A DNA stretch of 64,000 nucleotides from Scenedesmus sp. PABB004 (taxonomy: Eukaryota). The position numbers were made by a program, and so were the translations under genes. Shown piece by piece: positions 2,391-31,157 of this stretch (positions are counted from its first letter, which is position 1; each line of letters starts with the position of its first letter). The notes beneath the pieces are model-generated. The model made no database searches and was not told the DNA's origin. It saw only the letters and a list, made by a program, of their open reading frames with translations. Location of the stretch: NCBI GenBank assembly GCA_014905635.1, contig JABVCE010000004.1, positions 992,001-1,056,000 of the forward strand, given 5' to 3'.

Positions 2391-2425
<35 letters not shown>

Positions 2426-4349: not shown

Positions 4350-4382
<33 letters not shown>

Positions 4383-5372: not shown

Positions 5373-5430
5373 GCGCGCCGCGCGCGCCGCTCCCTTGCGG
5401 GTCGCTGCCGGCTGTGCAGGACAAGCTGAC

Positions 5431-6520: not shown

Positions 6521-6555
<35 letters not shown>

Positions 6556-8399: not shown

Positions 8400-11585
<3,186 letters not shown>

Positions 11586-11996
11586 ATGCAATTCACACCA
11601 ACGTGCCTCTCTCTTGCGAACGAAACTCTGATGTGCGCGCGCGTGCGCGGGAACCTGATTCGTTACACCTCTTGCTCGCATGCGCGTGTGCGCGCGCGCG
11701 CAGCCGGCCGCGCGGCCGCAATTCGGTGCGAGGCGGGAGAAGCGCGGCGAGAAGCCAAGAGACAGACAGACAGACAGACGGTTACACCTTGCGCTCGCAC
11801 GCATAGGACCCGCGCCCTTTAAGGGCGGCGCTCGACTTGGGCCAGTGTGACCTCATTGCGGTGGCCCAACCAGGCCAAGAGAGGACGTGGTTGAGTTGCA
11901 ACTCAATTGTTGTTTCTGTCTGGGCTTGAGTTTTGCTAGCACGCAAGCAAAGACAGCAACCATCGCCGCAGAACAGCGCTGGTGCGTGGCGCACGC

Positions 11997-12474
11997 TCAG
12001 CACTTGCGCGTCGTGGCGCAAGCCAGCCGGCTCGAACCGCTCCTCGAGCTCGAGCTCTTGCTGGGCCTGCCACCGCCAGAATTGCCGCCAGAGCCGCCGC
12101 CGTGCCCCGAGTGCTTCAGGGTGCGCGTGGAGCCGTCCACGGCGAGGGAGGAAGGCAGCGCCAGCATCCGCCGCAGAGGCCGCGCCAGCCTGCGACGCAG
12201 CATGCGGGCGGCGGCGGCGGCGGCGCGGGCCTCTGCGATCAAGCTCATGCCCCACTGATGACCGCAATGCCGTGCGCGCGGCCCCCCGCAATGCCGTGCG
12301 CGGCCCCCGCGCACGCACGCGCTGCTCTATCACAGATCCCACCACGGACCGGGCCGCCCTGCACGCGCCCGCTCACCGCGCCACGGGGGGATCCCTCTTC
12401 TCTGCAGCCGCCTCCGCGACAGCGCTGGTGCAAAGCAGCGCCAGGACGGCCAGGGAGAGCAGAGCTTTGCGCAT
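11997..12474 (-). CDS. Putative small secreted protein (exon structure unresolved)
   Basis: MRKALLSLAVLALLCTSAVAEA signal peptide followed by a GTGAG donor. A downstream segment is Gly/Ser-rich, and TGTAA lies on the minus strand near 11785. The splice phase could not be closed. Confidence 0.35.
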
Positions 12475-12728
12475 GTTCCTCGGTGTCTGTGCGGCCCCGA
12501 TGCGCACGATGGGGATACAATCAATTCGTCGCGCGCTTGGCAATGCCGAAGCACGGCACTGCGCGGACAGGCGTTCGGCAGGCCGCGGGGGCTCCTCCTC
12601 GCGGCGCACGGTACAGGGCGGCAGCGCAGCAATACGGCGCGCCGCGCTCCCTGAGCGCGGCCGGCACAGGGCCGGGACAGGGCGCCCTGGGCACTGGCGT
12701 CGCTAGGGCTGAAGGTATTGGCACGTCA

Positions 12729-13465
12729 GCGACAGCGGCGGGACCGAGTGCATCAGGAGGCCACACGCGGCGGGCATGGCGCGCGGCGGCGTGGCCCGCG
12801 CGAGGCGCGGGTGTGGCTGCGGAGCAGCGCCTTTGCCTCCGCCGCCGCAGCCGCCGACGCGGGCTGGGCCTCACCTGGAAGCGTGAGCAGGTCCCAGACC
12901 TGGCGGGGGGTCAGCCCTGCGACCACGGTCGTCGCCACGGCCCTCACGCGCCCGCCCTCGACCGAGACCTCGATGTGGTGCTGCTGCTGGCTGGCCTCCA
13001 TCATCGCGCCCTCTCGCTGCTGCAGCGCCCACCCGCTCGCCCTGAGGCTGGCGGGGCTGCCCTCTGCTCCCACAGCTGGCCTCACGCCGCGATGGCGGGC
13101 CCCTGCGAGCCCTGCTGCCGCGCGGCTCTCGGCCTCGCCAAGACGGGCCCTGGCCGGCGCGTGCGAGCCGCGCCTCCAGCAGGGCGCACGTGCGTAGGGA
13201 GCGTTGCGCAATCAGGCAGCCAGCGACCGGCCTTTGTGGAGCCGGGGCGCTGCGGCGCCGCGCGTCACGGCGGCGGCGCGGCCTCGCGTTGACGCGCCCC
13301 CCGCGCCCTCGTGCCCGCGGCGCCGCCACGCGCGCAGCTGCTTCAGGGCTGACCGGGCAAGGCCGGGGGTGCTGCCGGGGGTGCCCGGACGGCGCGATGG
13401 GCGTTCCAGCGTTCGCGCGGAGGTGCGTCAGCCGCGCCTCCGTGACCGCCGCCGCGCCGCTGCGC
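12729..13465 (-). pseudogene. Direct repeat copy 2: orphan promoter and intact exon 1 (13004-12875) of the SRPBCC gene
   Basis: MMEASQQQHHIEVSVEGGRVRAV... with no stop. Homology ends inside intron 1 and no downstream exons follow. Confidence 0.8.
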
Positions 13466-13662
13466 CGCCGCCGCATGGGCCGCGGCCGGCCCGCCCACGC
13501 GCTACACTGGTCGCAGAGGGACGTCACAGGTGCCGGACGCTCAAGGAGGGACAGGCGGCCCGCCAGTTTATAGATGGGCTCGCTCGCGCTCGGCAGCTGC
13601 GGCTGGTGCGGGCCGCGTCTGGGAGCGAGCCGCCGCGTGGCGCGCGTGGGAGGGCGGGCGCG

Positions 13663-15097
13663 ATGGACATCGTCCGGCCCAACACTGACGGTGAGGCTTG
13701 CAGGCATCGCTGTCCCGCGGCGGGCACGCCACGCGTCAGCTCTCCTGCGCCATCACGCGTGCCGTCTTCGCAGCCCCGTCGTCTCCGGCACGCTTGCCGG
13801 CGCGGAGCGGGCCCGCGCGCGCCGCTCAGCGGCAGCGGGACGCGCGGCCACGTCCACGCAGCAACGCCGCGCCTCCTCGCGCTCGCCCCCGCCGCAGACT
13901 TTAGCGTGTTCGTGGGCGACCTGGCGCCCGAGGTGACGGACTTTGTGCTGCAGCAGGCCTTCCAGCAGTTCTACGCCTCGGTCCGCTCCGCCAAGGCGAG
14001 CTCACGGCGCGGCGCGCGCGGCAGCGGGGGCCCCGGGCTGCGCCCCGGGCCCCGGGCGCGCGCGCGGCGCGCGCAGCGGCGGCGGCGGCCTGGCGGCAGC
14101 TGCGCGTCGCGACCCCGCCCGCCGCCCGCCGCCCGCGCACCCACCCGCGCAGGTCATCGTCGACCCTGCGACTGGCCGGTCCAAGGGCTACGGCTTTGTG
14201 CGGTTCAGCAGCGAGGCGGAGCGCGACCGCAGCCTGGAGATGCAGGGCTTCACGCTGAGCAACCGCCCGATCCGCGTCAGCCTGGCGACGGCGCGGCGCA
14301 GCCCCTCGGCGGGCATGCCCGGCACGCACCCGGCCGAGCTCGACCCCACCAACACCACGCTCTTCATCGGCGGCCTCTCCGCCGGCGTGAGCGAGGACCA
14401 GCTGCGCGCGATATTCGTGCGGTTCGGAGAGGTGGTCTACACTAAGATCCCGCAGGGCAAGGGCTGCGGTTTTGTGCAGTACGTGAACCGCCCCGACGCT
14501 GAGGCCGCCATGGCAGAGATGAACGGGCAGATGGTCGGCGCCTCGGCCATCCGCATCTCCTGGGGCCGCTCCACCTCGCGCGCCGCCGCGCTGCACGCGC
14601 GGCCGCTCGGCGCGCCGCTCGCCGCGTTCGGCGCCGCCGCGCCGGGGCTCGACGCCGGCGGCGGCGCGTTCGCGGTGGGCGGCGCCGCGGGCGCGTTCGT
14701 CGCGGCGCCAGGCGGCGGCGCGTTTGTCGCGGCCGACCCCGGCGGCGGCGCGGCCGTGGTGGCGGCGAGCGGCGGCTTTGACGCCTGCGCCGGCGGCGGC
14801 GGCGGCGGCGTCTATGCCTACCCCGCCTATGGCCTGCAGCAGGCGCAGCCCGGCTTTGCCGGCGGGCAGCTGCTGACCTTTGGCGGCCAGCCGGCGCTCG
14901 TGCTGCAGCAGCAGCAGCAGCAGCAGCAGCAGCCGCAGCAGGGCGGCGGCGCTCAGCAGCCGCAGTACGTGCTGGACCCTCTGGGGGGCATGGGAGGCAT
15001 GGACCTCAGCAAGCTCAGCGCCCTCCTGATGCAGCAGCAGCACTACCAGCAGCCCGGCCTCGCGGGCGCTGTCATGCCGCGCCCGCTGGGCATGTGA
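13663..15097 (+). CDS. RBP45/RBP47/Nam8-like RRM RNA-binding protein (two RRMs)
   Basis: FSVFVGDLAPEVTD, TGRSKGYGFVRF, DPTNTTLFIGGL, KGCGFVQY, IRISWGR. Intron 2 is GC-AG (13996-14152). Confidence 0.9.
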
Positions 15098-16708
15098 GCT
15101 CGCGGGCGCCCACGCGCCTGCGAGAGGGGGCAGGGGACGGTGTCGGAGCCGCTGCTTTGGTCTTTGGTCCCGCTTGCATTGATGCTCGCTCTTCGCTGTC
15201 GCCTCCAGCTTTGCTGCTTTCGCACAACTCCCAACGCACACAGCACTGACGACTGACACTCAGGCAACGCACACTCAGGCAACGCCAACAGGCGCTCCCT
15301 CTGCGACGACGACTCTGGCTCATTTCGCAAGCCGTTGCGCAGCATCTGGTCTCATGCTGAGGCGAGGAGGGCTCGCGGCCCGCTTTGCCGCTTGCCAGCA
15401 CAATCAACCAACACACCTGGGACGATGATGATCACCATCAATGTGTGCGTCTTGGGCTCTCACTCCCACGTGGCGCCACGGGGCGGGCCGAATGGACGAC
15501 GAACACGGAGCACTGCTGGCTGATCCATCCAGCTGCGCGGAGCACCGCCATTGTCAACAACAGTACTAACAACAGCAGTACAGCATGGGCAGCATGGTAT
15601 ACTCATGATGGCGCCGTGCTTGGAGGCGTGTGTGGCCTGGGCACCGCCGCAGCGCGCCCGAGGGCCGAGCGCGGAATCATCATGCTATCCGTCTGGGGAC
15701 GCGCCACCGCCCCGGCTGCCCTGCCTCGTCGCCGCCTGCCGGGCGACGCGCTGCGGCAGCCGCTGCTGCCGCCGCGCGGGCGCGCGCCGCGGCCTGCACG
15801 CACTGGCGGCAGCAGGTGGCCGTCCTCCTGCCCTTTGCCTTTCTGCACGACAAACAGCACGCTTTGCTTGTTTCGTACTAGGGGGGAGCCTCGGGTCGGT
15901 GCACAACAACACAGACAACAAGCGTGGTGGTGGCAAAGGGGCTCCTGTCCTTTCCTGTCTCTCTCTCTGCCGGCTGCGCAGCCGGCGGCTGTGGCGCACA
16001 CTGGCGTACCGTCTTGCTGACACACACCAGCACCAACACACTAACACACCCAAGCGAATGCATGCGTGCGAGCGGGTCTGGGCGAGGAGGCAGGCAAGGG
16101 TCGCGCGCGCGTGCGGCGCGGCCCTCCCCCCCCGCCATCCAGCCGGATCCAAACGCCAGAGGTCTTCCTTCTAGAGCCTTGTGTGCTCTTCGTGCAAGCA
16201 AAACTGGAGAGACCACCACTGGCGATGCGATGGCGGCAGCCACCGCGCGATGATGACGACGGCGCGCGCGCGGCCTTGCGGCGGGTGTGTAGAAACTGGG
16301 CGTGAGGGACGCGCTGCTGCTCCTGCTGATCGTTGTGCGCGGCCCGAGTCGGTTCCCCGTTTGGGTTGATGCATCCGCACGCTCGCTCAACTTGCGATGA
16401 TGGCGGCGATGGTGAGCACCAGCTCCTCGCTCCATCGCAGATACGTTGCACGCTAATAACAAAAGGCACTGCTTTCTGGGGCACGACAGGCGTCTGTCCA
16501 CCCGCCGCGATGAGTGCGGCGGCGGCACGCTGCTGGGTGTGTGCGGCGTGCGTGTGGAGCGTCGTCGTTGACGGTCGCCGTCCATGTGTGACGGGCATCG
16601 AGGCTCCCGGCAGGGCCGCGCGTCGAGCAGCCAGTCCAGTGCACACACACGCCAGCCGCACCGTCGTTGTGCGCGCAGCTAGCTAGCAGCCAGCGTCGCG
16701 CGTCGATC

Positions 16709-17554
16709 ATGGCCGCCGCGGCGGCGGGCAGCTCGTCCTCGCAGGCGGGCGACAGCTCCGCGCCAGGAGACGCCGTGCTCGACCTGCTGGCGCAGGTGCG
16801 CAGGAAAAAGGCGACCGCTCGCCGCCGCTGCAACCGCCCGCTGCTGCTGCTGCTCCGGCGCTGCAACCGCCCGCTGCTGCTGCTCCGCCTGCAACCGCCC
16901 GCCGCTGCTGCAACCGACGCCGTCCGCCCCTCGCGCCGGCCCGCCCTCCCGCGACCACCAGGGTCTGCTTCAGCTGGGCCGGCCGTCGTTGCTCGCCGCT
17001 CGCGGCGTGTCCCGGCACTGGCGCGACTGTATCGGCGCGATGCAGGAGCTTCTGGTGCTTCCTCACGACGCTTGGGCCGGCTGCGCCGCCGGCGGCAACC
17101 GAGGCAAGCGCCGGGCCGCGCTGGCCGCGGCGGAGGGTGAGGCGGGCGAGCAGGAGGAGGAGGACGAGGCACCGCCGGCGGCTGCCGACAGCGACGATGG
17201 CGAGTTTGTGCCGACAGTCGTCCCCGGGATGGCCCGCTCGGCAGCTCGCTGGCTCAAGGCGCAGCAGCGCAAGCAGGCCGCGGCGGCGCGAGAGGCGCAG
17301 CGCGCGCCGAAGCGCAGGCGCGCCGCGCAGCCCGGCGCGGCGGCGGACGCCTGCACGCCGTCCGGGGCGGGCGGCAGCCGCTCCCCCGCGCAGCCGGAGC
17401 AGGTGGATGAGGCAGCAGAGGACGGCGCCGCGGGTGGCGACGCGGCCGCCGCTGCCGGCGAGGGGCAGCAGCACGGCGAGCAGGCGCGCGCTGAGCCGCA
17501 CTGGGAGCCCACCGCGCTGGTGCAGCAGCAGCAGGAGGACGGGGAGGGCCTGGC

Positions 17555-17614
<60 letters not shown>

Positions 17615-18677
17615 GCAGCCGCCCGAGCAGCCGCCGCAGCGGCGCCACCCCCTGGCCTCGCTGCCGCACAGCTTCCCCAACTGCCGCGAGGTGACGCTGC
17701 AGTGCCGAGGCATCGGCGCCGGCATCGGCGGCGGCGGCGGCGTGGGCGGCCACGCCGAGCGCGTGATGGCAGAGAGCGTGGCGCTGCTCGCGGAGCTGCC
17801 TCGCCTGCGGGTGTTGGCGGTCAGCGGCTGGATCCGCGCCCTCGCCTGGCGGCCGGTCGCGGCGGCGCTTGCGGCGCACGAGGCGAGCCTGGGCGCGCGG
17901 CTGCACACGCTTCGCCTGGCCGGGGTGGAGCTGCCCCACCCGGCGGAGCTGCAGGCGCTGGCGGTCACGCCGGGGCTGCGCGAGCTCAGCATCCAGGCAG
18001 GCGTCAACAGCCAGATGCTGCAGCCGTCGCACCTGTCGGCGCTGGCGGCGGGAAGCCAGCTCACCTCGCTTTGCCTCAGCGTCTACCAGTGCGGCGGCAG
18101 CAGGCTGCCCCTTGACGCCCTGCTCGACCTCACAGGCCTGCGGGACTTGGACATCACGTACAGCGGTGAGAGGCCAGGAGAGAGCGGGAGGAGGGGTGTC
18201 TGCTTGGCCGCTTGGCCGCTTGGCCGCTTGGCCGCTTGGCCGCTTGGCCGCTTGGCCGCTTGGCCGCTTGGCCGCTTGGCCGCTTGGTGTCTGCTTGGCC
18301 GCTTGGCCGCGGGCAGGAAGGGCCCTCGCCTCAGCCCTCGGCGGGCGCCCCGCAGCGCTCGTTGACGACGAGGGCCGCGAGAGGGCCGTGGGCGGCCGCC
18401 ACGCTGCTGACGCCCCGCCCCGCCCGCCCGTCCCGCTGCCGCTGCTGCTGCCACCCCGCCAGGCATATTCAAGGATCAGCGCCCGGCGCTGAGCTGCGAC
18501 GGCCTCAGCCGCCTTTGCCGCCTCACGCGGCTCGCGACTCACCAGCTCGCCTCGCCGGCGCTGCCTCGCGCCGAGCTTCCGGAGAGGCGCTGCAGCCGCA
18601 GCGCCCGACCACGCACGCAGCAGCCGGGGCGGCGAGCAGCTCGCCCGAGGAGCCGGCGGCCAAGCGGCAGCGGCTGA
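16709..18677 (+). CDS. F-box-like/leucine-rich-repeat protein (3' end uncertain)
   Basis: LLAARGVSRHWR resembles an F-box end. LRR-like units LPRLRVLAVSG, LHTLRLAG, LRELSIQ, LTSLCLS, LTGLRDLDIT and LSRLCRLTRL. PolyQ tract. Confidence 0.55.
18203..18309. repeat. (CTTGGCCG)n 8-bp minisatellite in an intron
   Basis: About a dozen tandem units with one interruption. Confidence 0.95.
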
Positions 18678-19436
18678 GCGGCGGCGGGCCCGGCAGCAGC
18701 GTGGCCAGCCCCGCGCCGTCAGCCGGCGCCGGCGGCAGCCAGCGGGGCAGCCAGCAGCCGTCGCGCGGCAGCACGCCGGCCGGCGGCGCGTCGGCCGGTG
18801 ACGCCGCGGCGCCCGGCAGCCGCGAGGGCTCGGCGCACCCCGCCGCCGACGGCGACGGCGTCGCGGCGGCAGCGGCCGGCGCGGCTGCCGACGACGCGGC
18901 TGTCGAGCGGCGCCGCAAGGGCCTGGTGCTGCTGTTCAGGCTTCCCTTCAAAGACATGCCAGAGCGCTACCGCCTGCACCCGGCCTCGCTGCCGCGCGAG
19001 GCCGCCGCCGCGTCGGCGGCCGCGCTGCTGCAGGAGCTGCGCGCGGAGCGGGAGCGCGCCGCGGCCGGCGCGCCGGCGGCAGGGCAGCCCGCCGCCGCGC
19101 CGCCGCCGGGCCGCCCGTCGTCGCGCCGTCGCCGCCGCCGCCCGAGCCGGCGCCGTCGGCGGCCGGCGCGCCGTGGCTGGCGGTGGGGCGCTGCGTGCGC
19201 GTGTTCTGGCCCGACGACGTCGCGTGGTACGCGGCGGACGTGCGCGGCTTTGACCCCGCGACCCGGCGGCACACGCTGTGGTACCACGCGGATGAGGTCA
19301 GTGAGCAGCTCGACCTGGCGGCCGAGGACGCGGCGGGCCGCGTGCAGTGGCTGCCGCCGACGGACAGCAGCCGCTGGCCGCCGCCGCCGGCGCCGCCCGA
19401 GCCGGCCGGCGGCGCGTGGGGCGCGGCCGCGCCGGC

Positions 19437-19483
<47 letters not shown>

Positions 19484-21840
19484 TTGCGGCGCCGCCGCCC
19501 GAGCCGGAGCCGCCGCGGCCCGAGGCGGTGCCGCCGGGCTTCCCGCGCCTGACCGCGATGCTGCGCGACCCCACGGCGCCCGGCAGCGTCGACCTCGTCG
19601 GCCTGGCGGCGTCGGGCGCGCCGCTGCGGGAGCAGCTGGCGCGCCTGCTGCGCGCGCAGCGGGACGCGCACGCCGTGCACGGCCGCGCGCAGCCGTCGCT
19701 CGCGCAGCTGCCGTCGGGCGCGGGCCTCGTCGGCTGGCGGCTCGGCGTGTTCTGCGCCCCGGCGGGCGTCTTTTACTACGGCCACCTCACCACGTACCCT
19801 GGCAGCGGGCAGCACGCGATGTGCTTCGACGACGGCGTCGCGTGCGCCATCTCGCTGCCCGCGGAGCGCCTCGACTGGGTCGCCAGCGGCGGCCAGGCCG
19901 CGACTGCGGCGGCGCAGGGCGCGCACGCGGCGTACATGCAGCGCCGCGCGGCGGCCGCCGCCGCGCACGCGGCGTGGCAGCAGCGCCGGGCGCTGAGCGC
20001 CGCCGCCGCCGGCGGCGGCGGCGAGCACCTGGCGCGCCTGCTGGCGGCGCAGGTGCAGCAGGTGCAGGGCGAGCTCGCCGCGCTGGGCTGGCGGCAGGGC
20101 ATGCCGGTGCCGCTGCACGTGCAGGCGCGCATGGCGCAGCTCGCGGCGCTGCAGACGCAGATCGCGGGCGCCGCCGCTGCCGCGGGCGGCGGCGCGGCGG
20201 CGCCGCTGCCGGCGCACGCCGCGCACGCCGCGCCGCGCGCCAGCGGCGGCAGCGGCGGCGGCGGTCCGCGCCCCGGCGCGCCGACGCGCGTCGACGTCGT
20301 GTGCGGGGCGCACATGGGCCAGTTTGACTGCCTGCGCTCGGCGGTGTCGCTGCCGTCGGGCGCGGTGGTCAGCCCGACCGAGTTTGAGCGCCTCAGCGGC
20401 AAGGGCGCGAGCAAGAAGTGGCGCGCCACCATCCGCGTGCGCAAGGCCAACGGCCTGCCCGGCATCACCCTCGGCGACTGGCTGCTGCAGCAGGGCTACG
20501 ACGCGCCCGCGAGCGCCGCGGGCGGCGGCGCCGCCGCCGCCGGCCGCGGCGGCGGCGGCAGCCTCAACGACATCCGCCGCAGCCAGCAGCAGCGCAAGGC
20601 CGCCGCGCAGGCGGGGCTCGGCGGCGCGCACCGCGCGGGCTGCCTGTGCGTGGCGTGCAAGGCCGCGCGGCGCCGCGGCGGCGCGCCGCCGGCCCCCGCC
20701 GCCGCCGCGGCGCCGGCCGCCGCCGGCGTCGGCTACAAGCCGCTGCCGCTGCGCAGCGCCCCCGGCGGCGCGGCGCCGCTGGGCGAGTCCGCGCGGCGCC
20801 GCGCCAAGCTGCTGCCCGCGCTGCTGCTGGGCAAGCGCGCGTACGTGTCGGCGGTGCCGCACCTCGTGCGCGGGCCGGCGGTGCACAGGCCCTGGCAGCT
20901 GCCGGAGAGCCGGGCCTACTCGGCCGACGAGTGGGAGGCGCGCCAGCGCGGCGGCGGCGGCGCGGCGGCCTCGGACGGCCCCGCCGCGGGCAGCGCCGGC
21001 GAGGGCGGCGGCCGCGCGGGCACGCCCGGCGCGGGCGGCAGCCGGCCGGGCACGCCGGCGGCGTCGGGCGGCGATGGCGGCGGCGGCGGGTGCGGCGACG
21101 CCATGGCGGTCGACAGCGCCGCCGTGGACAGCAACGCGGCGGCGTCCCAGCAGGCGGCCGCGGCGGCGGCGGCGGCGGCGGCGGCGCTGCCGGGCGGGAC
21201 GCCGCCGCCGGCGGCGGGCGCGGACCGCGGCGGCGAGAAGCGCGGCAGCCGCGCGCAGACGCTGCGCGAGCGCCTGCGCGCGTGCCGCGCGCTCGAGCCC
21301 CGCCGCATCACGTTTGGCAAGAGCGGCATCCACGGCTGGGGCGTCTTTGCGCGCGCGGCCATCCCCGCGGACGCGATGGTCACCGAGTTTCGCGGCGAGC
21401 TCGTGCGCACGGTGCTCGCGGACGTGCGCGAGGCGGCGTACCGCAAGCAGGTCTGTGCGCGCCCGCGCCCGGCGGCGGCGGTGGCTGAGCCCCCGCCAAC
21501 CCGTTCAGCCCCTGAGCCCCGACGCCGCCGCCGCCGCCGCCCCGCGCCGCCGCTCTGCACACAGGCGCGCGACTGCTACATGTTTCACGCCGCCGACGCG
21601 ACGGTCATCGACAACACGGGCGCCGGCAACCACGCGCGCTTCACCAACCACTGCTGCGCGCCCTGCCTCTACGCCAAGCCGCTGGAGCTGGGCGGCGACG
21701 TGCACCTCGCCTTCTTCGCGCGCGCTGACATTGCGCCCGGGCAGGAGCTCACGTTTGACTACCGATTCAAGGAGGAAGACACCGAGCACAAGGTCCTCTG
21801 CCACTGCGGCGCGCCCAACTGCAAGGGCACGCTCAACTGA
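18535..21840 (+). CDS. ATX3/4/5-like (trithorax) histone H3K4 methyltransferase: Tudor-like, SAND, SET and post-SET; start not found
   Basis: GRCVRVFWPDDVAWY (Tudor-like); SPTEFERLSGKGASKKWRATI (SAND); FGKSGIHGWG, ARFTNHCC, ELTFDYRF, CHCGAPNCKG (SET/post-SET). In-frame intron 21451-21564; frame change near 19115. Confidence 0.85.
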
Positions 21841-22162
21841 AGTTTTGCATCGCGTTTTCGCGCGTCCGGCTCGCGTGGAGCGCCGGCTCGGCGGCAGCGG
21901 CGGCGGCAGATGGCCGGCGGCGCGCGCCGGCACGGCGGCGCGGCGCGGCGCGGCGGGCGGTGTCTAGTCTGTTGCAGCGCGGCGGCGGTAGACCAGCGCG
22001 CGTGCGGGCACGCTGCCGCGGCAGCCCGAGAGGCGGAGAACAAGCCGCGGGCGCCATGCCGGAGTCGGCAACCTCGCGCGCAGGAAGCACATGCCCCCGC
22101 GCCGCGCTGGCCAGTTTCCCGCGCACTCACGCACGCTCCGCGCCCGTCAGGACGCCGCCAGC

Positions 22163-22420
22163 ATGGGCGAGGGCGGCAGCAGCGCCGCCTGCCCTGCAGG
22201 CACCACCATCTGCTGCGCGCTGGACGGCCCGCCCAGCTCGCGGGAGGGCCTGCGGTGCCGCTTCCCCGGCGCAGGCGACGTTCCAGCGTCGGTGTGCGGC
22301 AGCACCGTGTGCTGCACGCCGCCGCCGGGCGCGGTGCGCGGCGCCCGCTGCTGCCGCTGCCGCGGGAGGCTGCTGCGGAGGCAGCGGCGGCTGCTCCGCG
22401 CTGCTGCTGGCCCCTGGGCG
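22163..22420 (+). pseudogene. Third, diverged copy of the Cys-rich exon 1 (22163-22333) plus part of its intron
   Basis: [57 protein letters not shown] followed by a GTGCG donor. No exon 2 found. Confidence 0.7.
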
Positions 22421-22565
22421 TCAGCGACGGCAGCCGACCAGCACAGCGGAAGCGCTGCGCCGGGGCCGTTCGATGACACCTGGATTACGTCTTGGCGGTT
22501 TGACCAGCGACGACGCGTTTTACAGCGCTGCCCGCTTCCAACCCCGCCGCTGCGGCCACGCCGGC

Positions 22566-25500
22566 TCATCGCACGAGCGTGAGGCACGGGCCGCAGCGCA
22601 GGCCGCCGACGTCGTCGCGCAGGAAGGCGGTGATCGCGGTCGCGGCCGCGGAGCACGCGACCGACGCGACGAAGCACCACCCCAGCCCCGCGGCGGGCGT
22701 CCCGCCGGCGTAGGTGTAGAGCGCACCGGACGCCAGCGTGCCGGCGAGGCGGCCGCCAGCATTGGCGAAATAGTAGAAGCCCACCTGTGGACATTGCACG
22801 GGCGTGGGCCGGGGCGCGAGCGGTGCCGCCGACCCGCCGCCGCAGGTTGGCGCCCCCCAGGTTGGGCGCGGTGGGGCGCGGCGGCGGAGGGCGGTTCAAG
22901 CGCCCACGGCAGCCCACCGTCATGGCGGCCTTGTCGCCCTGCGCGTAGCGCACGATGAGGTACGAGTGCACCGCCGAGTTGACCGCAAAGAGCACGCAGT
23001 ACACGACCAGGCCCGAGAGCAGCACGCCCGCCATCGCGCGCACGTCGCGGCCCGCAAACACGGGGCTGCCCAGCACCACGGCCGCGAGGTAGGCCGGCGC
23101 GAGCGTGAGCAGGCCGTTCCAGAGCAGCTCCGTGTACTTGTTGGCCGGGCTCTGCCGCAGCGGCTGCAGCACGAGCTGCGGCGTCCAGCTCTGCACCTGG
23201 CCGTAGAGGATGATGAAGCCCTGTCGCGTGGGAGGGAGGTGCGAGGGAGGTGCGAGGGAGGCGAGGGGGTCGTAGGGCGAGGGCGAGCGCGGGCGCGCCG
23301 CCGAGGCGCGCGGCCCCGCGCGCGCGCCGCGCCGCGCCGCGCCGCGCCGGACGCACCGCGAGCACCGCGCCGACGGCGACGCGCTGCCAGCCGAGGCCGT
23401 GGGCCGCGTCGCGGAGGAAGAAGGGCAGCGGCACCTCGAACCAGCAGTCGCGCGAGCCAAAGAGGAAGAAGCGCGCCGCGCTCAGCACGTTGACGTTGTA
23501 GCGCTGCCGCAGGAGCTTGGAGAGCTTCACGTTCTCCTTGCGCGCCCTGCGGCGCAGCGGGGCGGCGCGCTCGGCGCGCGCGGCAGCTGCGGCGCGCCCA
23601 GCGCTCGCGGCGCGCCCCGGGCCGCGCCCCGCTGAGCCCTGCGCCGCGCCGCGCGCGCGCGCCTGCCGAGCTGGTTGGACAGACCCACGACCGCCCACGG
23701 CATCGCCGCCGCGACGAGCACGAGCAGCACGCCCAGCGCAAAGTTGTACGACTGACGCGCGGGCAGGCGGCAGGGAGGCGGCGCGGCGCGCGGCTGGGTG
23801 GCCTGCTGCGCCAAGCGAGCGAGCGGCGCGAGCCCGCGGCGGGGGTGGCCGCGGCCGCGGCCTGCGCCGCGGCCGCAGCAGCCGCGCCGCGTTCGCGACC
23901 CCGCGCGCGCGCGCGCCGCACCAGCGTGAGCGCCGCGGCCCCGATGAAGTACCCCACGCCCTTCATGCTGTTCTTCCAGCCGGTGATGAACGACACGACC
24001 TTGAACAGCCGGCTCTGAGAGTGAAGGACGCGGGGGCGAGCGGGCGCGGCGGGTGGCGGCGGTGAGAGGGCGCGAGGCGGCGCGGAGAAGGGCAGGGGGA
24101 AGGGAGGCGGCCGCGCGCCGCGGCGCGCCTGCTGCTCCTCGGGCGTGACGAGCTTGGTGACCGTCTTGCCGCCGAGCTTGGTGAGGTCCTTTGCCACGCC
24201 GCAGAGCATCTGCGCGGCGGTCACAAACACGACGCCCTTGGCCTGCTGCGACGGCTGCGCCCACGCGTCCTGCCAGCCGAAGAGCATGCCGATGCCCGCG
24301 AGCTGCAGCGTCAGCCCTGCGGCGGCGGCAGCGCGCGTTCGCGCCCAGCGCGGGCTGCCCGCGCGCGCCGCCGCCCGCGCCGCCGCCCGCCGAGCGCCGA
24401 GCGCGCGGCGCGGCGGCGCACCGGTGAGGAGCGTGGTCTTGATGCCCCAGCGCGCGCCCATGAGTCCGGCAAGCAGGTTGGTCACGACGCCGGCGAGCTC
24501 GTAGAAGGAGAACATGATCGCGGTCTGCCACGCGCTGAACCCAAGGTGGTAGGCGTGCAGCAGCACGATCATGCTGCGCCGCGCCAGAGCGGCGGCGGCC
24601 GGCGGCGGCGGGGACGGGCGTCGGGGGCGTGGCGGGCGGCGCGCGGCTGCCGCGCCGCGCCGCGTGCCCCGCCCCCGCGCGCCGGGACGGGGGGGAGGGG
24701 ACGGGGCGCTGCCGTGCCGCACCGCACTGCGCCGTCTGTGGTGGTGAAGAGGAGGTATGAGAGGGAGATGATGACAAAGGGCTTCAGCGCAGAGTACTCG
24801 CGCCGCAGGTACCTGGGCGCAGCGCGGCGAGACGCGCGGCACGCGGCGCCAGGCCGCGCGCGGCGCGGGGCCCAGGGTCGGCGGGGACGGGCGGCAGCGG
24901 CAGGGCCGCGGGCGGCGGCCGCGGCGGAGCGCGCGCGGCACCCGCGTGCGCGCACTCGCTGCGGGTCTCGTCTGCGCGGCGGCCGAAGTCGGCGCCGCCG
25001 GTGGCGGCCTGTGCGTCGTCTTTGGCGCAGCTGGCTGGCGCGGCCTCTTCGAGCAAACTGCGGCAGGTGGTGCGGCTGCGCTTCAGCGCGTGGAGAGCGC
25101 CGAGCCTCAGGTGCCTGGCCGCGGCAGCTCCCCCCCCCTGCCCTCCACTGCCCAGCGGCGCAGCGCGCGCACCTCTGGTGCTGCGCCTCATAGCTGGGGC
25201 TCTGATAGATGGCCCGGTCTGCGGCGTCCACGACCGCGAAGCAGTCCCCTACCTCATCCTGCGCGTGCCGCGGTGGCAGCGCGCGGCGTGAGCTGTGACG
25301 GCACCAGCTGCCCCCCCTGGCGCCGGGGCCAGCAGCAGCGCGGGGCAGCCTCCAGCGGCAGCGGCGCAGCCGCGTCGGCAGCGGCAGCAGCGGGCGCGGC
25401 GCACCGCGCCCGGCGGCGGCGTGCAGCACACGGCGCTGCCGCACACGGACGCTGGCACGTCCCCTGCGCCGGGGAAGCGGCAGCGCAGGCCCTCCCGCGA

Positions 25501-25572
25501 GCTGGGCGGGGCGTCCAGCGCGCAGCAGATGGTGGCGCCCGCGGGGCAGGGGGCGCTGTCAGTCTCGCCCAT
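22566..25572 (-). CDS. arsJ: ArsJ-like organoarsenical efflux MFS transporter with Cys-rich N-terminal extension
   Basis: YLLFTTTDGAVRMIVLLH, FYELAGVVTNL, GVAKDLTKLGGK, TGWKNSMKGVGYFIG, LSAARFFLFGSRDCWFEVPLP, FAVNSAVHSYLI, VGFYYFANAGGRLAGT. Exons join in phase, including two GC donors. TGTAA at 22524-22520. Confidence 0.9.
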
Positions 25573-25880
25573 GCTGCCGGCTGTCTGACCGCGTGGAGGG
25601 AGCGGCGAGCTGCCCAGCGCGGCAGGCGCGCACTGGCCGAGTTCCGAGACCCGGGACGCATATGCCGCCCCCTCGATTCCCGTCAGCCCCGCGACACACC
25701 GCGCGACGCCGCTGCCGCCGGACCGACACCGCGATCGCCCCGCCGCCGCACGCACCGCGCCGTGCCAGCAGTGCCGCCCGCCGTGGCCGCTGCCGCTGCC
25801 GCTGCCGCTGCCGCCGCGCCCGCACGCGCCGCCATGCCGGTCAGGGTCGCGATCAACGGCTGCGGCCGCATCGGTGAGAT
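25130..25880. repeat. Inverted repeat, left arm (arsJ exons 1-2, bidirectional promoter, orphan GAPDH exon 1 at 25834-25873 on +)
   Basis: Near-identical reverse complement of 28018-28750. Confidence 0.92.
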
Positions 25881-26092
25881 TACAGACGTGGCGTCCGGCC
25901 CACGTGTTGAGGCTGCCGCAAGTGCCGGCGCCTGGTCAACCGCAATGACAGAGTTCAGGGCGCGACGCCGGCGCGCTGGTGCGGAGTTTGGTGTCTTGGT
26001 TGTTGGTTGGTTCCACGCGCTGCTCGCAACCGGGCTGGCTCCACGACCCGCCGCGTCACTGCCACGCGCCGGCGCTCATGTGCCGGGCCGCG

Positions 26093-26135
26093 TCACGCCT
26101 GGCCCTTGGCCACGATGGCCGCGAGGTCGACCATG

Positions 26136-26168
<33 letters not shown>

Positions 26169-28064
26169 GCGTAGATCTTGACCATGCTGCCGTCAATCAC
26201 CTGCAGAGCGCCGTCCAACGCGGCGGCGCGGCGGCGCCGGCGGCGTCAGCGCGCGCCTGTCGGCGCCCTCTGTGCGCGAGGAGCGGCGGCCTCACGCGCC
26301 TGCCCGCGCGCCCGCCCCACCTGCGTGCACGCCGCGTCCACGATGGAGCTGCGTGCGTCGTTCACGTAGTCGGTGCTCACCAGCGGCCGCTCCTCAAAGC
26401 CCAGGATGCCGCGCAGGTAGGTCGCCGACGCCTCCTGCGGTGTGGTGTGTGGGTGTGGGTGTGGGTGTGGGTGTGGGTGTGGGTGGAAGCCGCGTGCGTG
26501 GCGCGGCGCGGCGGCTGGCGCCGCGCCGCCGCGCCTTGAGCAGCGCGTTGACCTCCTCCGCGCTGGTGCCGCGCTTGACCTCAAACACGCAGTCCGTGAT
26601 GGAGCTGTTGGTGAGCGGCACGCGCACGGCGAGGCCGTTGAGCTTGCCCTTGAGCTCAGGGAAGATCAGGGCGATCGCGGTCGCGCTGCCCGTGCTCGTG
26701 GGCGCGAGGTTGACCAGCCCCGACCTGCGCGCGCGCGCGCGCGGGGCGGGCGGGCGGCGGCCGCGAGGTCGGACGGCGGCCGCGCCGTCGCGCCCCCGCG
26801 GCTGCGCCCCGCGGCGCGGCGCGGCGCGGCGGCGCCCCGCGCGCGCGCACCGCGCGCGGCGCAGGTCTGTCTTCTTGGTGTTGGGTGCGTCGACGAGCGT
26901 CTGCGTGTTGGTGAGGTTGTGGATGGTCGTGATGCAGCCGTGCACGATGCCGAGCTTCTCCTGGATGACCTTGACCACCGGCGCGAGGCAGTTGGTCGTG
27001 CACGACGCGGCGGTGACGATGTCGTCGACCTCAGGCTTGTACAGGTGCTGGCGCCAGTCACGGGCGGGCGGGTGGGCGGCCGGGCGGGTGGCGGCGGGCG
27101 GCGGCGGGCAGCGGCGGCCGGCGTGGGGCGGCGCGGCGGCGGCCGGCCGGCGCGGCGCCACGCGTGCAGCTGCCGATCGGGCGGCGGCGGCGGCGGCGGC
27201 GGCGGCGCACGTCGTTCACGCCGACCACGACGTTGAGCACGGGGTTTGGGTCCTTGACCGGCGCGCTGACCACGACCTTGCGCACGCCCTTCTCAAAGTA
27301 TGGCGCCAGCGCGGCGCGCGTGAGGAAGGCGCCCGTGCACTCCCAGACCTGGTCCAACTTGCCCAGGCCGGCATAGTCCAGCTGCACCGGCGGCAGCGCG
27401 GGCGGCAGCGGCGGCGCGGCGGGGCAGGGTCGCCCGGCGCGGCCGGGCGCGCGGCCGGCGTGGCGCGCGGGGGCAGCGCACGGCGCCGCACCTCGGCCGG
27501 CGTCTTGGCCTGGGTGTAGGGGATGCGCGCCACGCGCTCGCCAGCCGTGACCACGATGCAGCCGCCCTCCACGGTCACACCGTGCCCCGCCCAGGTGCCT
27601 GCGCCGCGCGCCGGCGCCCGGTGAGCGGCGGTGAGCGGCGGCGAGCGGTCGCGGCTGCGCGAGGCTCGGCGGCAGCGGCGCCCGCGCACCGTGCACGCTG
27701 TCAAACTGGATGAGGTACGCGGTGGACTCGGCGGACGCGAGGTCGTTCAGGTGCACAAACTCAAACTCGCCCGGCCGGTCGAACGCCACCCGGAACGCGA
27801 GGCGGCCTGCGGCGCGCGGCGCAGGTGCGCGGCACGCAGTGCGCGGCGCGCGGTGCGGTCTCAGCGGCGGCGGCATCAGGCGGCGGGGGACTGCACCCTG
27901 CTGGCCTGCTGCGGGGCGTGCTGGTGGTGCTGCTGCCGCTGCTGCTGGTGCCGCCTCTTGCTGCTGCCGGTACTTCGCCCCTGCGCGCGGGATCTGGGCC
28001 CTCCACGTGTGTTATGCATCTCACCGATGCGGCCGCAGCCGTTGATCGCGACCCTGACCGGCAT
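26093..28064 (-). CDS. Glyceraldehyde-3-phosphate dehydrogenase, ArsJ-associated type
   Basis: [102 protein letters not shown]. These resemble bacterial ars-operon GAPDH more than GapA/GapC. TGTAA at 25884-25880. Confidence 0.92.
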
Positions 28065-28750
28065 GGCGGCGCGTGCGGCGCGGCGGCAGCGGCAGCCGCC
28101 GCGGCGGGCGTCACTGCTGGCACGGCGCGGTGCGTGCGGCGGCGGGGCGATCGCGGTGTCGGTCCGGCGGCAGCGGCGTCGCGCGGTGTGTCGCGGGGCT
28201 GACGGGAATCGAGGGGGCGGCATATGCGTCCCGGGTCTCGGAACTCGGCCAGTGCGCGCCTGCCGCTGGGCAGCTCGCCGCTCCCTCCACGCGGTCAGAC
28301 AGCCGGCAGCATGGGCGAGACCGACAGCGCCCCCTGCCCCGCGGGCGCCACCATCTGCTGCGCGCTGGACGCCCCGCCCAGCTCGCGGGAGGGCCTGCGC
28401 TGCCGCTTCCCCGGCGCAGGGGACGTGCCAGCGTCCGTGTGCGGCAGCACCGTGTGCTGCACGCCGCCGCCGGGCGCGGTGCGCCGCGCCCGCTGCTGCC
28501 GCTGCCGACGCGGCTGCGCCGCTGCCGCTGGAGGCTGCCCCGCGCTGCTGCTGGCCCCGGCGCCAGGGGGGGCAGCTGGTGCCGTCACAGCTCACGCCGC
28601 GCGCTGCCACCGCGGCACGCGCAGGATGAGGTAGGGGACTGCTTCGCGGTCGTGGACGCCGCAGACCGGGCCATCTATCAGAGCCCCAGCTATGAGGCGC
28701 AGCACCAGAGGTGCGCGCGCCGCTAGGGGCAGCAGAGGGGGCAGGGGGGC
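28018..28750. repeat. Inverted repeat, right arm (GAPDH exon 1, bidirectional promoter, PGK-like exons 1-2)
   Basis: Near-identical reverse complement of 25130-25880. Confidence 0.92.
28065..28310. promoter_or_regulatory. Putative bidirectional promoter between GAPDH and PGK-like (second copy at 25573-25833)
   Basis: 246 bp between divergent ATGs at 28064 and 28311. Confidence 0.7.
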
Positions 28751-30424
28751 GTGCGGCAGCCGCGCACAGCTCAGCCTCGCCACCGCCGCCGCCGCCTGGC
28801 AGGCTCGCGCAGGCGGGTGCGTCCAGCACCCTCGACAGCTGCATTGAGACCCTGCTGTCGCCGCGCCTGGACCTGGCGGCGCTGCCAGCGGGCGCGCTGC
28901 GCGGCAAGCGCGTGCTGCTGCGCGCCGACCTCAACCTGCCGCTCGGGCCGGGCGGCGGCGTGACCGACGCCACGCGGCTCGAGTCGCTGCTGCCGACGCT
29001 GCGGCTGCTGCTGGCGGGCGGCGCGCGCGTCGCGATCGCGTCGCACTTAGGCCGGCCTGAGCCGGCGCGCCAGAGCGAGGAGGAGATGCGTCGGCGCTTC
29101 AGCCTCGCGCCCGTCGCCGCGCTGCTGGAGCGGCTGCTGCCGGCCGGCGCGTTCGCGGGCCTGGCGCCCGACTGCGTCGGCCCCCAGGCCGCCGCGGCCG
29201 TCGACGCGCTGCAGCCCGGGCAGGTGCGGGTGGGCAGCGGCAGCGGCGGCCCGCGCCGCCGACGCCGTTGCCGACGCGCTGCCGCCGCTGCCGACACGCC
29301 GCCGCCGCCGCTGCGTCGCGGCAGGCGTGCCTGCTCGAGAACCTGCGCTTCCACGCGGGCGAGGCGAGCAACGACCCTGCCTTTGCGGCGTCGCTCGCAG
29401 CGCTGGGTGACGTGTGCGTGAACGACGCGTTCGGCGTCGTCCACCGCGACCAGGCCAGCGTCACGGTGCGCGGCGCGGCCGCCGCCGCGCCGCTGCCGCA
29501 CGGCCGCCGCTGCGCGACTGCAGGCGCGGCCGCCGACGCGGCCGCCGCCCGCTTGCCCGCGCGCGCAGGGCGTGCTCTGCCACCTGCGCGGGTACCCAGG
29601 GATGCTGCTGCGCGCGGAGCTGCGCCACCTGCACGGCGTGCGCGCCGCGCCGGCGCGCCCGTTTGCTGTCGTGCTGGGCGGCGCCAAGGTGAAGGACAAG
29701 CTCCCCGTGCTGGCCGCCCTGATCGCGCAGCAGCACGCGCCCGACCTGCTGCTCGTCGGCGGCCGCATGGCGTTCACCTTCCTCGCCGCCGAGGGCGTCG
29801 CCGTGGGCGCGACCCAGGTCGAGGGCGAGTGGTTGCAGGCCTGCCGCGACATGCGCGGCGCGGCGGCGGCGCGCGGCGTGCGCCTGCTGCTGCCGCGCGA
29901 CGCGGTCGTCGCGCGGTCGCTGGACGACGACCGCGGCTGCTGCACCGTGCCGCTCACGCGCGGCTGCTGCAGCGCCGACGCGCCGTGCGTGCCCGCGGGT
30001 GAGCGGCCAGTCACGCGCGCGCGCTCGCCGGCCGCGCGCGCACGTCGCTCAGCGCGCCCCGCCCCGCCGCGCGCCGCGCCGCGCAGGCTGCCACGGGCTG
30101 GACATTGGCCCGGCGAGCGCCGCCGCGTTTGCCGAGGCGCTGGTGGGCTGCCGCACCGTCTTTTGGAACGGCCCGATGGGCCGCTTCGAGGTGCCCGGCT
30201 TTGCCGCGGGCACCGCCGCGCTCGCGCGCGCCGTGGGCGCCGCGACCGAGGCCGGCGCGACGACCGTGATCGGCGGCGGCGACTCGGTCGCCGCGCTCAA
30301 CCAGCTGCGCCCGCGGCCGGCGGTCAGCTTTGTGAGCACCGGCGGCGGCGCCAGCCTGGAGCTCATCCAGGGCCGCCTGCTGCCGGGCCTGCGCGCGCTC
30401 GCCGACGACGGCCGCGCAGCGTGA
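28311..30424 (+). CDS. Phosphoglycerate kinase-like protein with Cys-rich N-terminal module
   Basis: [71 protein letters not shown]. Exons 28311-28478 and 28625-28710 splice in phase to 28803. TGTAA near 30436. Confidence 0.9.
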
Positions 30425-30509
30425 GCTGCAACGCCTGTAACCCGCTGCGTGCCCACCACCCCGATCTCCCGAGCGCACGCGGCCCAGTCGGCCGTCCCCT
30501 CGCTCAAGC

Positions 30510-31157
30510 ATGGCGCTCACCATCAGCACCGCCGCGCCGCGCCGGGCCGCCGTCGCCGCGCGGCGCGTGCCGGCGGCGCCGCCGCGCCGCACCGCGGTCG
30601 CTGTGCGCGCCTCCGCCTTCCAGGCGCCCTCCCACGGGGCCGCCCGCGCTATGGCAGGGGCGGCGGCGGTGGCCGCGGCGGCGGCGCTGCTGCTGTCCAG
30701 CCCGCCCGCGCTCGCAGCGGTGCCGTCCCCGGCCGAGGGCGCCACGCGCGAGGCCACCCGCGGCCTCGCGCCCCGCCGCGGCGCCCTGGCACCCGACGTG
30801 GCCGGCCAGGAGCGTGAGTGGCGCACGCTGGCGGCGGGCGCGCGCGCGCTGCAGGCGCGACCCGCGGTGCGCGCGCCGCCCGCGCCCGCAGGCGCGGGCC
30901 AGCCCGGCGCGGCGGCGCGCACGGCCGCGATGCGCCGCACGTTTGTCGCGGCCAGCAAGGAGAACCAGGACTTCGCGATGCAGGCGCGGCCGGGTGGCAG
31001 GCGGCGGCGGGCGAGGCCCGGCGATCGCGCGCGGCCCCTGCGCGGGCGCGCCCCCACGCCGCCCGCTCCCTGCCGCGCCCCGCAGAAGTACCCGGAGAGC
31101 GGCGTGCGCTGGCGCCGCGGCTGGCCCAACACCGAGGGCGCGGAGGGCCCGCAGTGA
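30510..31157 (+). CDS. Small plastid protein, possibly thylakoid lumen, of unknown function
   Basis: Transit-like leader (VAVRAS), then hydrophobic AAAAALLLSSPPALA. Two in-frame introns, the second with a GC donor at 30984. Confidence 0.6.
   Translation: MALTISTAAPRRAAVAARRVPAAPPRRTAVAVRASAFQAPSHGAARAMAGAAAVAAAAALLLSSPPALAAVPSPAEGATREATRGLAPRRGALAPDVAGQEREWRTLAAGARALQARPAVRAPPAPAGAGQPGAAARTAAMRRTFVAASKENQDFAMQARPGGRRRRARPGDRARPLRGRAPTPPAPCRAPQKYPESGVRWRRGWPNTEGAEGPQ

What the first reader, a model, noticed from the sequence alone, without database searches (positions are those of the whole stretch)
22566..30424. Eukaryotic arsenate-detoxification neighbourhood: ArsJ, ArsJ-type GAPDH and PGK-like
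Seen: three adjacent intron-containing genes. Known: in bacteria a gapdh-arsJ pair confers arsenate resistance by forming and exporting 1-arseno-3-phosphoglycerate. I recall an ArsJ/GAPDH/PGK-like neighbourhood being reported in green algae, so the cluster itself is probably not new, although its architecture here may be. Inference: the PGK-like enzyme recycles or processes the 3-phosphoglycerate/1,3-BPG side of the pathway. None of the three has an evident plastid leader, which suggests a cytosol/plasma-membrane location.
Basis: partly seen in the sequence, partly recalled or inferred. Interest (0 to 1): 0.75.

Follow-up and report, generated by a model that had tools for sequence, protein, structure and literature searches.

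The report
Rearranged algal arsenate-export gene cluster
This is a green alga's copy of a known three-gene arsenate-resistance cluster, in which a small inversion appears to have copied the front end of the arsenic exporter gene onto the neighbouring enzyme gene, making a hybrid.

Summary
The three genes are real, at the stated coordinates: ArsJ (11 exons), GAPDH3 (8 exons) and PGK3. They are the published green-algal arsenate cluster (PMC7826186), whose arsJ and pgk3 mutants are arsenate-sensitive in Chlamydomonas; this scan met the cluster before in another genome. A 750-bp inverted repeat (25133-25880 / 28018-28749, 96%) flanks the GAPDH3 body and holds ArsJ exons 1-2, the shared 260-bp promoter and GAPDH3 exon 1. 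So GAPDH3 looks inverted from the head-to-head layout of other algae, an orphan GAPDH3 exon remains, and PGK3, with no usable start codon of its own, gains ArsJ's 85-residue cysteine-rich, Ig/TIG-like N-terminus (0 of 119 other PGK hits carry it). Metagenome contigs of one study bridge three of the four junctions, so misassembly is unlikely. A 99.8% second copy of the cluster lies 32 kb upstream (duplication or haplotype). Family-wide, PGK3 has a Cys-Cys insert (37 of 39 versus 0 of 80). No RNA evidence: the hybrid protein is predicted, not shown. Verdict: new variant of a known system.

The parts
22566..25572 (-). ArsJ-type MFS exporter, 11 exons, 559 aa; exons 25405-25572, 25173-25258, 24956-25057, 24723-24812, 24422-24573, 24129-24316, 23922-24014, 23663-23751, 23357-23546, 22918-23220, 22566-22784
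   Evidence: model; 71% identical to P0126 over 570 columns; NF033734 best on 6 of 6 exons scanned; tree
26093..28064 (-). GAPDH3 (ArsJ-associated GAPDH), 8 exons, 347 aa, catalytic ASCTTNC motif intact
   Evidence: model; NF033735 best on 4 of 5 exons scanned; 77% to Cre07.g354200; tree
28311..30424 (+). Chimeric PGK3, 527 aa: copied ArsJ exons 1-2 (28311-28478, 28625-28710) spliced to the PGK3 body (28803-29223, 29325-29465, 29569-29998, 30087-30424)
   Evidence: model, equal to the start of public protein P0001; first ATG in the PGK frame is at 29086, inside the domain; catalytic columns conserved
25133..25880 (.). Left arm of the inverted repeat: ArsJ exons 1-2, promoter, orphan GAPDH3 exon 1
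   Evidence: 95.9% over 752 columns; alignment; 5 substitutions and 3 inner indels in the core
28018..28749 (.). Right arm of the inverted repeat: working GAPDH3 exon 1, promoter copy, ArsJ exon 1-2 copy that now heads PGK3
   Evidence: weak likeness runs on to about 28780 (11 of 3000 control stretches score as high)
25834..25873 (+). Orphan GAPDH3 exon 1, pointing into the 3' end of the inverted GAPDH3 body
   Evidence: identical to 28025-28064; carries an Ile-to-Asn change at 25871 in contigs of runs X1 and X2
25573..25833 (.). Head-to-head spacer (presumed bidirectional promoter), ArsJ side
   Evidence: between the two ATGs; promoter activity inferred
28065..28310 (.). Copy of the spacer, now between GAPDH3 and the chimeric PGK3
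   Evidence: promoter activity inferred
22130..22434 (+). Third, older copy of ArsJ exon 1 (22163-22333) with part of intron 1; no exon 2 found; with the left arm it forms an inverted pair around the ArsJ body
   Evidence: 86% over 306 columns; 6 synonymous against 2 replacement changes in 48 codons, binomial P 0.0075
29938..29988 (+). Cysteine-rich insert of PGK3 (two Cys-Cys pairs and a further Cys) before the DIG motif
   Evidence: Cys-Cys in 37 of 39 algal-type PGK3 hits, 0 of 80 lower hits
25880..25884 (-). TGTAA behind GAPDH3, lying at the inner edge of the left arm; others at 22520-22524 (minus, ArsJ) and 30436-30440 (plus, PGK3)
   Evidence: role as poly(A) signal is recalled

Best explanation
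This is the green-algal ArsJ-GAPDH3-PGK3 arsenate-resistance cluster. GAPDH3 uses arsenate in place of phosphate to make unstable 1-arseno-3-phosphoglycerate, ArsJ exports it, and it falls apart outside (shown for the Pseudomonas pair, inferred here by orthology). PGK3 most likely re-phosphorylates 3-phosphoglycerate left by premature hydrolysis so that it can be recycled (hypothesis of PMC7826186; untested). In this lineage a recent inversion of the GAPDH3 body, with one staggered break across the ArsJ/GAPDH3 head-to-head region, duplicated that 750-bp region in inverted orientation. GAPDH3 kept a full 5' end, an orphan exon stayed behind, and PGK3 lost its own start and was captured by the copied ArsJ promoter and first two exons. 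All three genes now hang on near-identical promoter copies, and PGK3 is made as a hybrid that begins with ArsJ's soluble Ig/TIG-like, cysteine-rich domain. Shown: sequence, orthology, repeat, frames. Inferred: the inversion route, expression and splicing of the hybrid, function.
For: Orthology; mutant phenotypes in Chlamydomonas (PMC7826186 section 8). Ancestral layout: of 80 metagenome loci, 60 hold both ArsJ and a GAPDH; 10 are head-to-head and 50 are bacterial-type tandem; the 10 are about 6 distinct sequences, and 5 of the 6 tested GAPDHs fall among algal GAPDH3. The repeat itself holds the two 5' ends head-to-head. One-sided inverted duplications of 46 bp to 1.9 kb mark staggered-break inversions in Drosophila (PMC1885836 passages). 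Domain origin: a profile of it hits 30 of 120 ArsJ homologs (most were in its training set; 6 were not), 0 of 119 other PGKs and 0 of 120 GAPDHs. PGK3 still looks alive: intact frame, all tested catalytic columns kept, end branch 0.25 against 0.23-0.42 in its three nearest relatives, TGTAA 12 nt behind the stop, and no unfused PGK3 elsewhere in G000. Reality: arms differ by the same substitutions and indels in both G000 copies; contigs of X1 and X2 bridge 25880, 25133 and 28749.
Against: No transcript evidence for any splice. The in-frame acceptor (28802) has a competitor 10 nt downstream (28812) that is out of frame with exon 2. The repeat is so young (under 1% in the core) that a dead PGK3 would still look intact. 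I saw no gene orientation for a close relative (none of the head-to-head loci is from this family; the paper's figure is not held), and gene order varies among algae (Volvox GAPDH3-PGK3-ArsJ; L071 GAPDH-ArsJ-PGK). No remnant of PGK3's own first codons was found in the inverted segment. Bridging contigs are single, low-depth (3-5) and from one study; the inner right junction (28018) is not bridged in the rows shown. Algal ArsJ orthologs score 373-380 bits, under the 400-bit cut-off of the bacterial model.
Confidence: 0.72

Rival explanations
1. Same cluster and repeat, but PGK3 was crippled by the event: transcripts mostly use the out-of-frame acceptor or skip exon 2, so little or no full hybrid is made, and the gene is a young pseudogene or carries only half the domain.
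For: Exon 2 joined to 28813 stops after about 135 codons; exon 1 joined to 28813 is in frame but leaves out the last strands of the predicted fold. The event is too recent for decay to show.
Against: The nearer acceptor gives a 92-nt intron of usual size and an open frame; substitutions seen in the second G000 copy leave the proteins unchanged where checked; PGK3 loss is arsenate-sensitive in Chlamydomonas.
Confidence: 0.14
2. The repeat arose by copying (template switch or gene conversion), and recombination between its arms lets the GAPDH3 body flip; both orientations give a complete GAPDH3, so populations may hold both.
For: The geometry allows a silent flip; the core is near-identical while the outer edge has decayed, as gene conversion would leave it; a third copy flanks ArsJ the same way.
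Against: Both G000 copies have the same orientation and the same arm-specific differences; no recombinase site or gene was looked for or seen; no listed contig spans a whole arm.
Confidence: 0.09
3. The repeat and the hybrid are assembly artefacts (fold-back or misjoined reads) and the true locus is an ordinary cluster.
For: The same contig holds a 99.8% second copy of the cluster, which may itself be an assembly error.
Against: Arms are not identical, differ alike in both copies, and three junctions are bridged by contigs of other samples that carry their own variants.
Confidence: 0.04
4. The genes are a glycolytic GAPDH/PGK pair with a triose-phosphate or phosphoglycerate transporter, unrelated to arsenic.
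For: Both enzymes keep their canonical catalytic residues; one MFS exon has a faint PgtP hit, E 0.005.
Against: G000 has separate GapA-like, GapC-like and further PGK genes; orthologs are needed for arsenate tolerance.
Confidence: 0.01

Closest known systems
Green-algal ArsJ-type neighbourhood: ArsJ, GAPDH3, PGK3 (Cre07.g354150/354200/354250; Foflonker and Blaby-Haas, PMC7826186)
   Same: Same three orthologous genes, adjacent, in the Chlamydomonas locus order ArsJ-GAPDH3-PGK3; GAPDH 77% identical to Cre07.g354200.
   Different: Inverted repeat around GAPDH3, orphan first exons, PGK3 fused to ArsJ's N-terminal domain, second copy of the cluster in the assembly. The paper's main text has no hit for 'cystein', 'inversion', 'bidirectional' or 'immunoglobulin'; its supplement lists an automatic Ig-like-fold tag (IPR013783) for the ArsJ row.
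Bacterial gapdh-arsJ pair (Pseudomonas aeruginosa DK2; NCBIfam NF033735, NF033734)
   Same: Same enzyme subfamily and exporter family; same presumed chemistry (described in PMC6947025).
   Different: Bacteria have an intronless tandem operon (50 of 60 two-gene loci), as a rule no PGK3, and no N-terminal Cys domain (no bacterial locus hit by the domain profile); eukaryotic ArsJ is a separate clade (100/100).
Staggered-break inversions with inverted duplications (Ranz et al., PMC1885836)
   Same: Non-repetitive gene pieces duplicated in inverted orientation at the ends of an inverted segment, from one breakpoint only, within the reported size range.
   Different: Here the inverted segment is a single 2.1-kb gene body in an alga, and the copy supplies promoter and first exons to a neighbour.
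IPT/TIG domains (plexin A2, CAMTA1)
   Same: Best structural matches of the predicted 85-residue domain: Z 5.4, rmsd 3.0, 67 aligned; Z 5.1, rmsd 2.7, 64 aligned; plexins also top Foldseek.
   Different: Scores are weak (Z under 8, Foldseek E 0.12 at best), no Pfam hit; the algal domain has 4 invariant-to-common cysteines, often as Cys-Cys pairs.

Membership tests
Green-algal ArsJ-GAPDH3-PGK3 neighbourhood | GAPDH belongs to GAPDH3, apart from GAPA/B and GAPC | tested here: met
   Tree of 44 rows: with Cre07.g354200 in a starred set (97/88); split 100/99 from own GapA-like and GapC-like genes, which are partial rows on long branches
Green-algal ArsJ-GAPDH3-PGK3 neighbourhood | MFS transporter is an ArsJ ortholog | tested here: met
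   NF033734 best on 6 of 6 exons scanned; 69% to C. reinhardtii P0144; in the chlorophycean group of the eukaryotic clade (no non-ArsJ outgroup)
Green-algal ArsJ-GAPDH3-PGK3 neighbourhood | PGK is of the non-canonical PGK3 subfamily | tested here: met
   35-row clade (100) with Chlamydomonas incerta, C. schloesseri and Volvox proteins, apart from 6 canonical PGKs; Cre07.g354250 itself was not among the named hits
Green-algal ArsJ-GAPDH3-PGK3 neighbourhood | The genes are neighbours | tested here: met
   All three within 7.9 kb, no gene between
Green-algal ArsJ-GAPDH3-PGK3 neighbourhood | Loss of ArsJ or PGK3 gives arsenate sensitivity | not testable with these tools
   Shown only for C. reinhardtii orthologs
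NCBIfam NF033735 G3PDH_Arsen | Whole-protein score of at least 450 bits | tested here: inconclusive
   The spliced protein could not be scanned whole; 5 exons (261 aa) sum to 326 bits; three orthologs score 459-491
NCBIfam NF033734 MFS_ArsJ (bacterial equivalog) | Whole-protein score of at least 400 bits | tested here: not met
   By proxy: three full-length algal orthologs score 373-380. It works like ArsJ but is filed under the eukaryotic ArsJ-like clade
Phosphoglycerate kinase (PF00162) | Substrate-binding basic patch and nucleotide-site residues | tested here: met
   D, N, R, H, R, R, H, R, K, K, E, D, T columns match the family; Pfam 390 bits. Roles of the columns are recalled
IPT/TIG domain | Ig-like beta-sandwich with family-level sequence or structure match | tested here: inconclusive
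   Six-strand model, pLDDT 77; best Z 5.4 and 5.1 to IPT/TIG domains, below the level that the tool calls clear; no Pfam hit

The most novel reading that the evidence does not exclude
The cysteine-rich Ig/TIG-like domain of algal ArsJ is a docking or arsenic-binding module that gathers GAPDH3 at the exporter so that the short-lived arsenylated product is channelled out. Here a single inversion gave PGK3 the same module and the same promoter, building a co-regulated three-protein complex, and the whole improved cluster was then duplicated. PGK3's Cys-Cys insert and two extra basic residues near the nucleotide site would mark a changed chemistry (handling an arsenylated substrate or As(III)) rather than plain 3-PGA recycling.
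Probability: 0.12. Interest if true: 0.72.

Novelty: new variant of a known kind. Interest (0 to 1): 0.38.

Why it matters
The cluster is known, so the finding as given is ordinary. The local layout is a clean, very young example of a chimeric gene born from an inversion inside a functional eukaryotic gene cluster, with the donor copy, the orphan exons and wild variants still readable. It gives a natural experiment on two open points of the algal pathway: what PGK3 does, and what the N-terminal domain that algae added to ArsJ is for. The PGK3 signature residues found here are direct targets for mutagenesis in Chlamydomonas, where a pgk3 mutant already exists.

Tried and rejected
Expression: no RNA holder was listed, so splicing was not tested. 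Metallothionein reading of the cysteine-rich exon: dropped, since it is the N-terminus of ArsJ in many algae and models as a beta-sandwich. The short proteins P0002-P0005 are not evidence of a stand-alone gene: P0003 and P0004 run into the first ArsJ helix. The 689-aa public model P0001 joins PGK3 to the next gene (30510-31157); rejected because of the stop at 30424 and TGTAA at 30436. A first ArsJ model lacked exon 24956-25057 (mended). An old promoter copy upstream of the third exon: weak, 39 of 2000 control stretches score as high; extension of the repeat inwards: chance level, 738 of 3000. The 17.5-kb segment X missing from the upstream copy: no target-site duplication and only Pro-kumamolisin and RRM hits among its long ORFs, so not filed as a transposon. 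ESM Atlas gave no usable hit for the domain. A single-sequence fold of one PGK exon was poor (pLDDT 59) and not used. An SBF-family search for an ACR3 gene could not tell ACR3 from other members. The first syn/nonsyn count and one Pfam query (row 10) were off frame and were redone. Literature searches for the rearrangement or a follow-up returned no paper describing it; only open-licence papers and bioRxiv are covered.
Full report
Observation. The window is very GC-rich (0.67-0.83 per 2-kb bin) and intron-rich; nearest homologs are from Scenedesmaceae, and the public protein that matches my PGK model is filed under the genus Scenedesmus. Reading both strands and splicing by coordinates gave three open genes: ArsJ (minus, 25572->22566, 11 exons, 559 aa), GAPDH (minus, 28064->26093, 8 exons, 347 aa) and PGK (plus, ending 30424). 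TGTAA (recalled as the algal poly(A) signal) occurs 9 times in the window, and 3 of these lie 42, 209 and 12 nt behind the three stops.

Identity. NCBIfam ranks the ArsJ-associated GAPDH model first on 4 of 5 GAPDH exons scanned and MFS_ArsJ first on 6 of 6 transporter exons scanned. The GAPDH is 77% identical to Cre07.g354200. In a 44-row tree it lies among chlorophycean GAPDH3s; these and 20 bacterial ArsJ-adjacent GAPDHs are split 100/99 from this genome's GapA-like (C20) and GapC-like (C1) genes, which entered as partial rows. The transporter groups with Tetradesmus, Raphidocelis and Chlamydomonas ArsJ within a eukaryotic clade; algal orthologs stay just under the bacterial cut-off (373-380 against 400 bits). 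The PGK lies in the PGK3 clade and keeps every catalytic column tested. This is the neighbourhood of PMC7826186 (seen: abstract, passages, part 2 of Results with the mutant section, part 1 of the Discussion, supplement search hits; figures are not held), where C. reinhardtii arsJ and pgk3 mutants are arsenate-sensitive. PMC9812998 (one passage) cites the cluster and adds lone arsJ in red algae. The scan noted the cluster before in another genome.

Positions 25133-25880 and 28018-28749 are 95.9% alike and enclose the GAPDH3 body. Each arm holds ArsJ exons 1-2 with intron 1, a spacer of about 250-260 nt, and GAPDH3 exon 1 facing the other way. The left arm serves ArsJ and leaves an orphan GAPDH3 exon; the right arm serves GAPDH3 and puts ArsJ's first exons in front of PGK3. 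The PGK frame has no ATG before 29086, well inside the domain; exon 2 spliced to 28803 gives an open 527-aa hybrid equal to the start of the public model P0001. In the 39 algal-type PGK3 hits the first conserved motif lies at residue 25-66 in 37 (one is a fragment, one a long fused model), against 124 here. The extra 85 residues are ArsJ's own: a profile of them hits 30 of 120 ArsJ homologs (30 of the 52 with a long N-terminus; 6 outside the training set), 0 of 119 other PGK hits, 0 of 120 GAPDH hits, and of 80 metagenome loci only L021 convincingly. The model is a six-strand sandwich (pLDDT 77) whose best matches are IPT/TIG domains at weak scores (Z 5.4 and 5.1; E 0.12); the paper's supplement carries an automatic Ig-like tag for ArsJ.

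How it arose (inference). Of 80 metagenome loci, 60 hold ArsJ and a GAPDH: 50 in bacterial tandem order and 10 head-to-head. The 10 are about 6 distinct sequences and look eukaryotic (5 of 6 GAPDHs tested sit among algal GAPDH3; L021 does not). The repeat preserves just that head-to-head join. An inversion of the GAPDH3 body with one staggered break across the join explains both arms, the orphan exon and the capture of PGK3 in one step; such one-sided inverted duplications of 46 bp to 1.9 kb are described for Drosophila inversions (PMC1885836, passages). The core differs by 5 substitutions and 3 inner indels in about 715 nt, most on the GAPDH side of the spacer, so the event is young or kept alike by gene conversion. 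A third, older copy of exon 1 (22163-22333) faces the ArsJ 3' end and shows 6 synonymous against 2 replacement changes (P 0.0075); it may be the scar of an earlier event of the same kind or a small gene. I did not see gene orientation in any close relative.

Is it real? Contigs of runs X1 and X2 (two samples, one study) bridge the inner left junction (40/331 and 42/287 letters), the outer left junction (X1, 78/45) and the join of the exon-2 copy to PGK3 (X2, 96/80), each as one contig of depth 3-5; the inner right junction is not bridged in the 32 rows shown. They carry variants absent from both G000 copies, among them Ile-to-Asn in the orphan exon, as expected if that exon is free to decay. 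A second copy of window 18584-30880 lies 31,923 nt upstream, 99.84% alike with 10 substitutions, in a layout A-B-A-X-B with a 7-nt microhomology at the B/A join. It has the same repeat, orientation and arm differences. One of its alleles (28609 G) is seen in X2, the other in X4. I put real duplication and tandem-assembled haplotypes at about even odds. G000 holds no other ArsJ and no unfused PGK3 among the candidates scored.

Mechanism. By orthology, GAPDH3 forms unstable 1-arseno-3-phosphoglycerate and ArsJ exports it (as described for Pseudomonas in PMC6947025, passages; the primary paper was not read). PGK3's step is open; the published guess is recycling of 3-PGA. Two family traits bear on it: a Cys-Cys insert before the DIG motif in 37 of 39 PGK3 hits and 0 of 80 lower hits, and basic residues at GG[RK]M (39 of 39 against 1 of 80) and G[KR]FE (38 of 39 against 0 of 80 among the residues listed), motifs that I recall as lining the nucleotide site. 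Vicinal cysteines are a recalled hallmark of As(III)-binding proteins; nothing here tests binding. Since the GAPDH has no leader and the other two begin with the same soluble domain, a cytosol/membrane location is the simplest reading.

Verdict. New, as far as searches reach, are the inversion with its inverted repeat, the predicted ArsJ-PGK3 hybrid, and the PGK3 signature residues. Without RNA the hybrid stays a prediction, with a rival out-of-frame acceptor 10 nt away. New variant of a known kind; interest 0.38.

Noticed in passing
G000:C35:976497-990957 (upstream of the window): Second copy of the whole cluster (window 18584-30880, 99.84%) plus 2.2 kb; lacks the 17.5 kb of window 1114-18583; cuts the downstream gene at 30880. 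Real duplication or haplotype.
   Followed up: partly
window 22130-22434: Third copy of ArsJ exon 1 with an excess of synonymous changes; read through, a 139-aa cysteine-rich frame; present in X1 and X2 contigs.
   Followed up: partly
P0185, P0192, P0194: Eukaryote-type ArsJ homologs in three hemichordates (Saccoglossus, Ptychodera, Glandiceps), on long contigs for two, and in diatoms; without the Cys domain.
   Followed up: partly
L021:8333-11665: ArsJ with the Cys domain sits head-to-head with a GAPDH that groups with GapC on a long branch, not with GAPDH3: possible replacement of the partner enzyme, or a long-branch artefact.
   Followed up: partly
P0166: An ArsJ homolog with two tandem copies of the cysteine-rich domain.
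   Followed up: no
window 28025-28064: GAPDH3 has GCGRIG in place of the usual GFGRIG; Cys is at this place in 20 of the 50 GAPDH3 hits that hold the motif.
   Followed up: partly
window 30510-31157: Small plus-strand gene starting 86 nt behind the PGK3 stop, with an N-terminus that looks like a transit peptide; no Pfam hit; fused to PGK3 in the public model, probably in error.
   Followed up: partly
window 18802-21840: SET-domain protein with a SAND-like region, inside the duplicated block.
   Followed up: no
window 43271-49051 and 60863-63360; 4639-5390 / 12729-13483: Three copies of a 2.3-2.7 kb repeat (83-91%; no Pfam hit in 9 frames scanned) and a 750-bp direct repeat at 94%.
   Followed up: partly
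G000:C9:220201-220383: A lone match to the C-terminal part of PGK, apart from the C12 and C35 genes.
   Followed up: no
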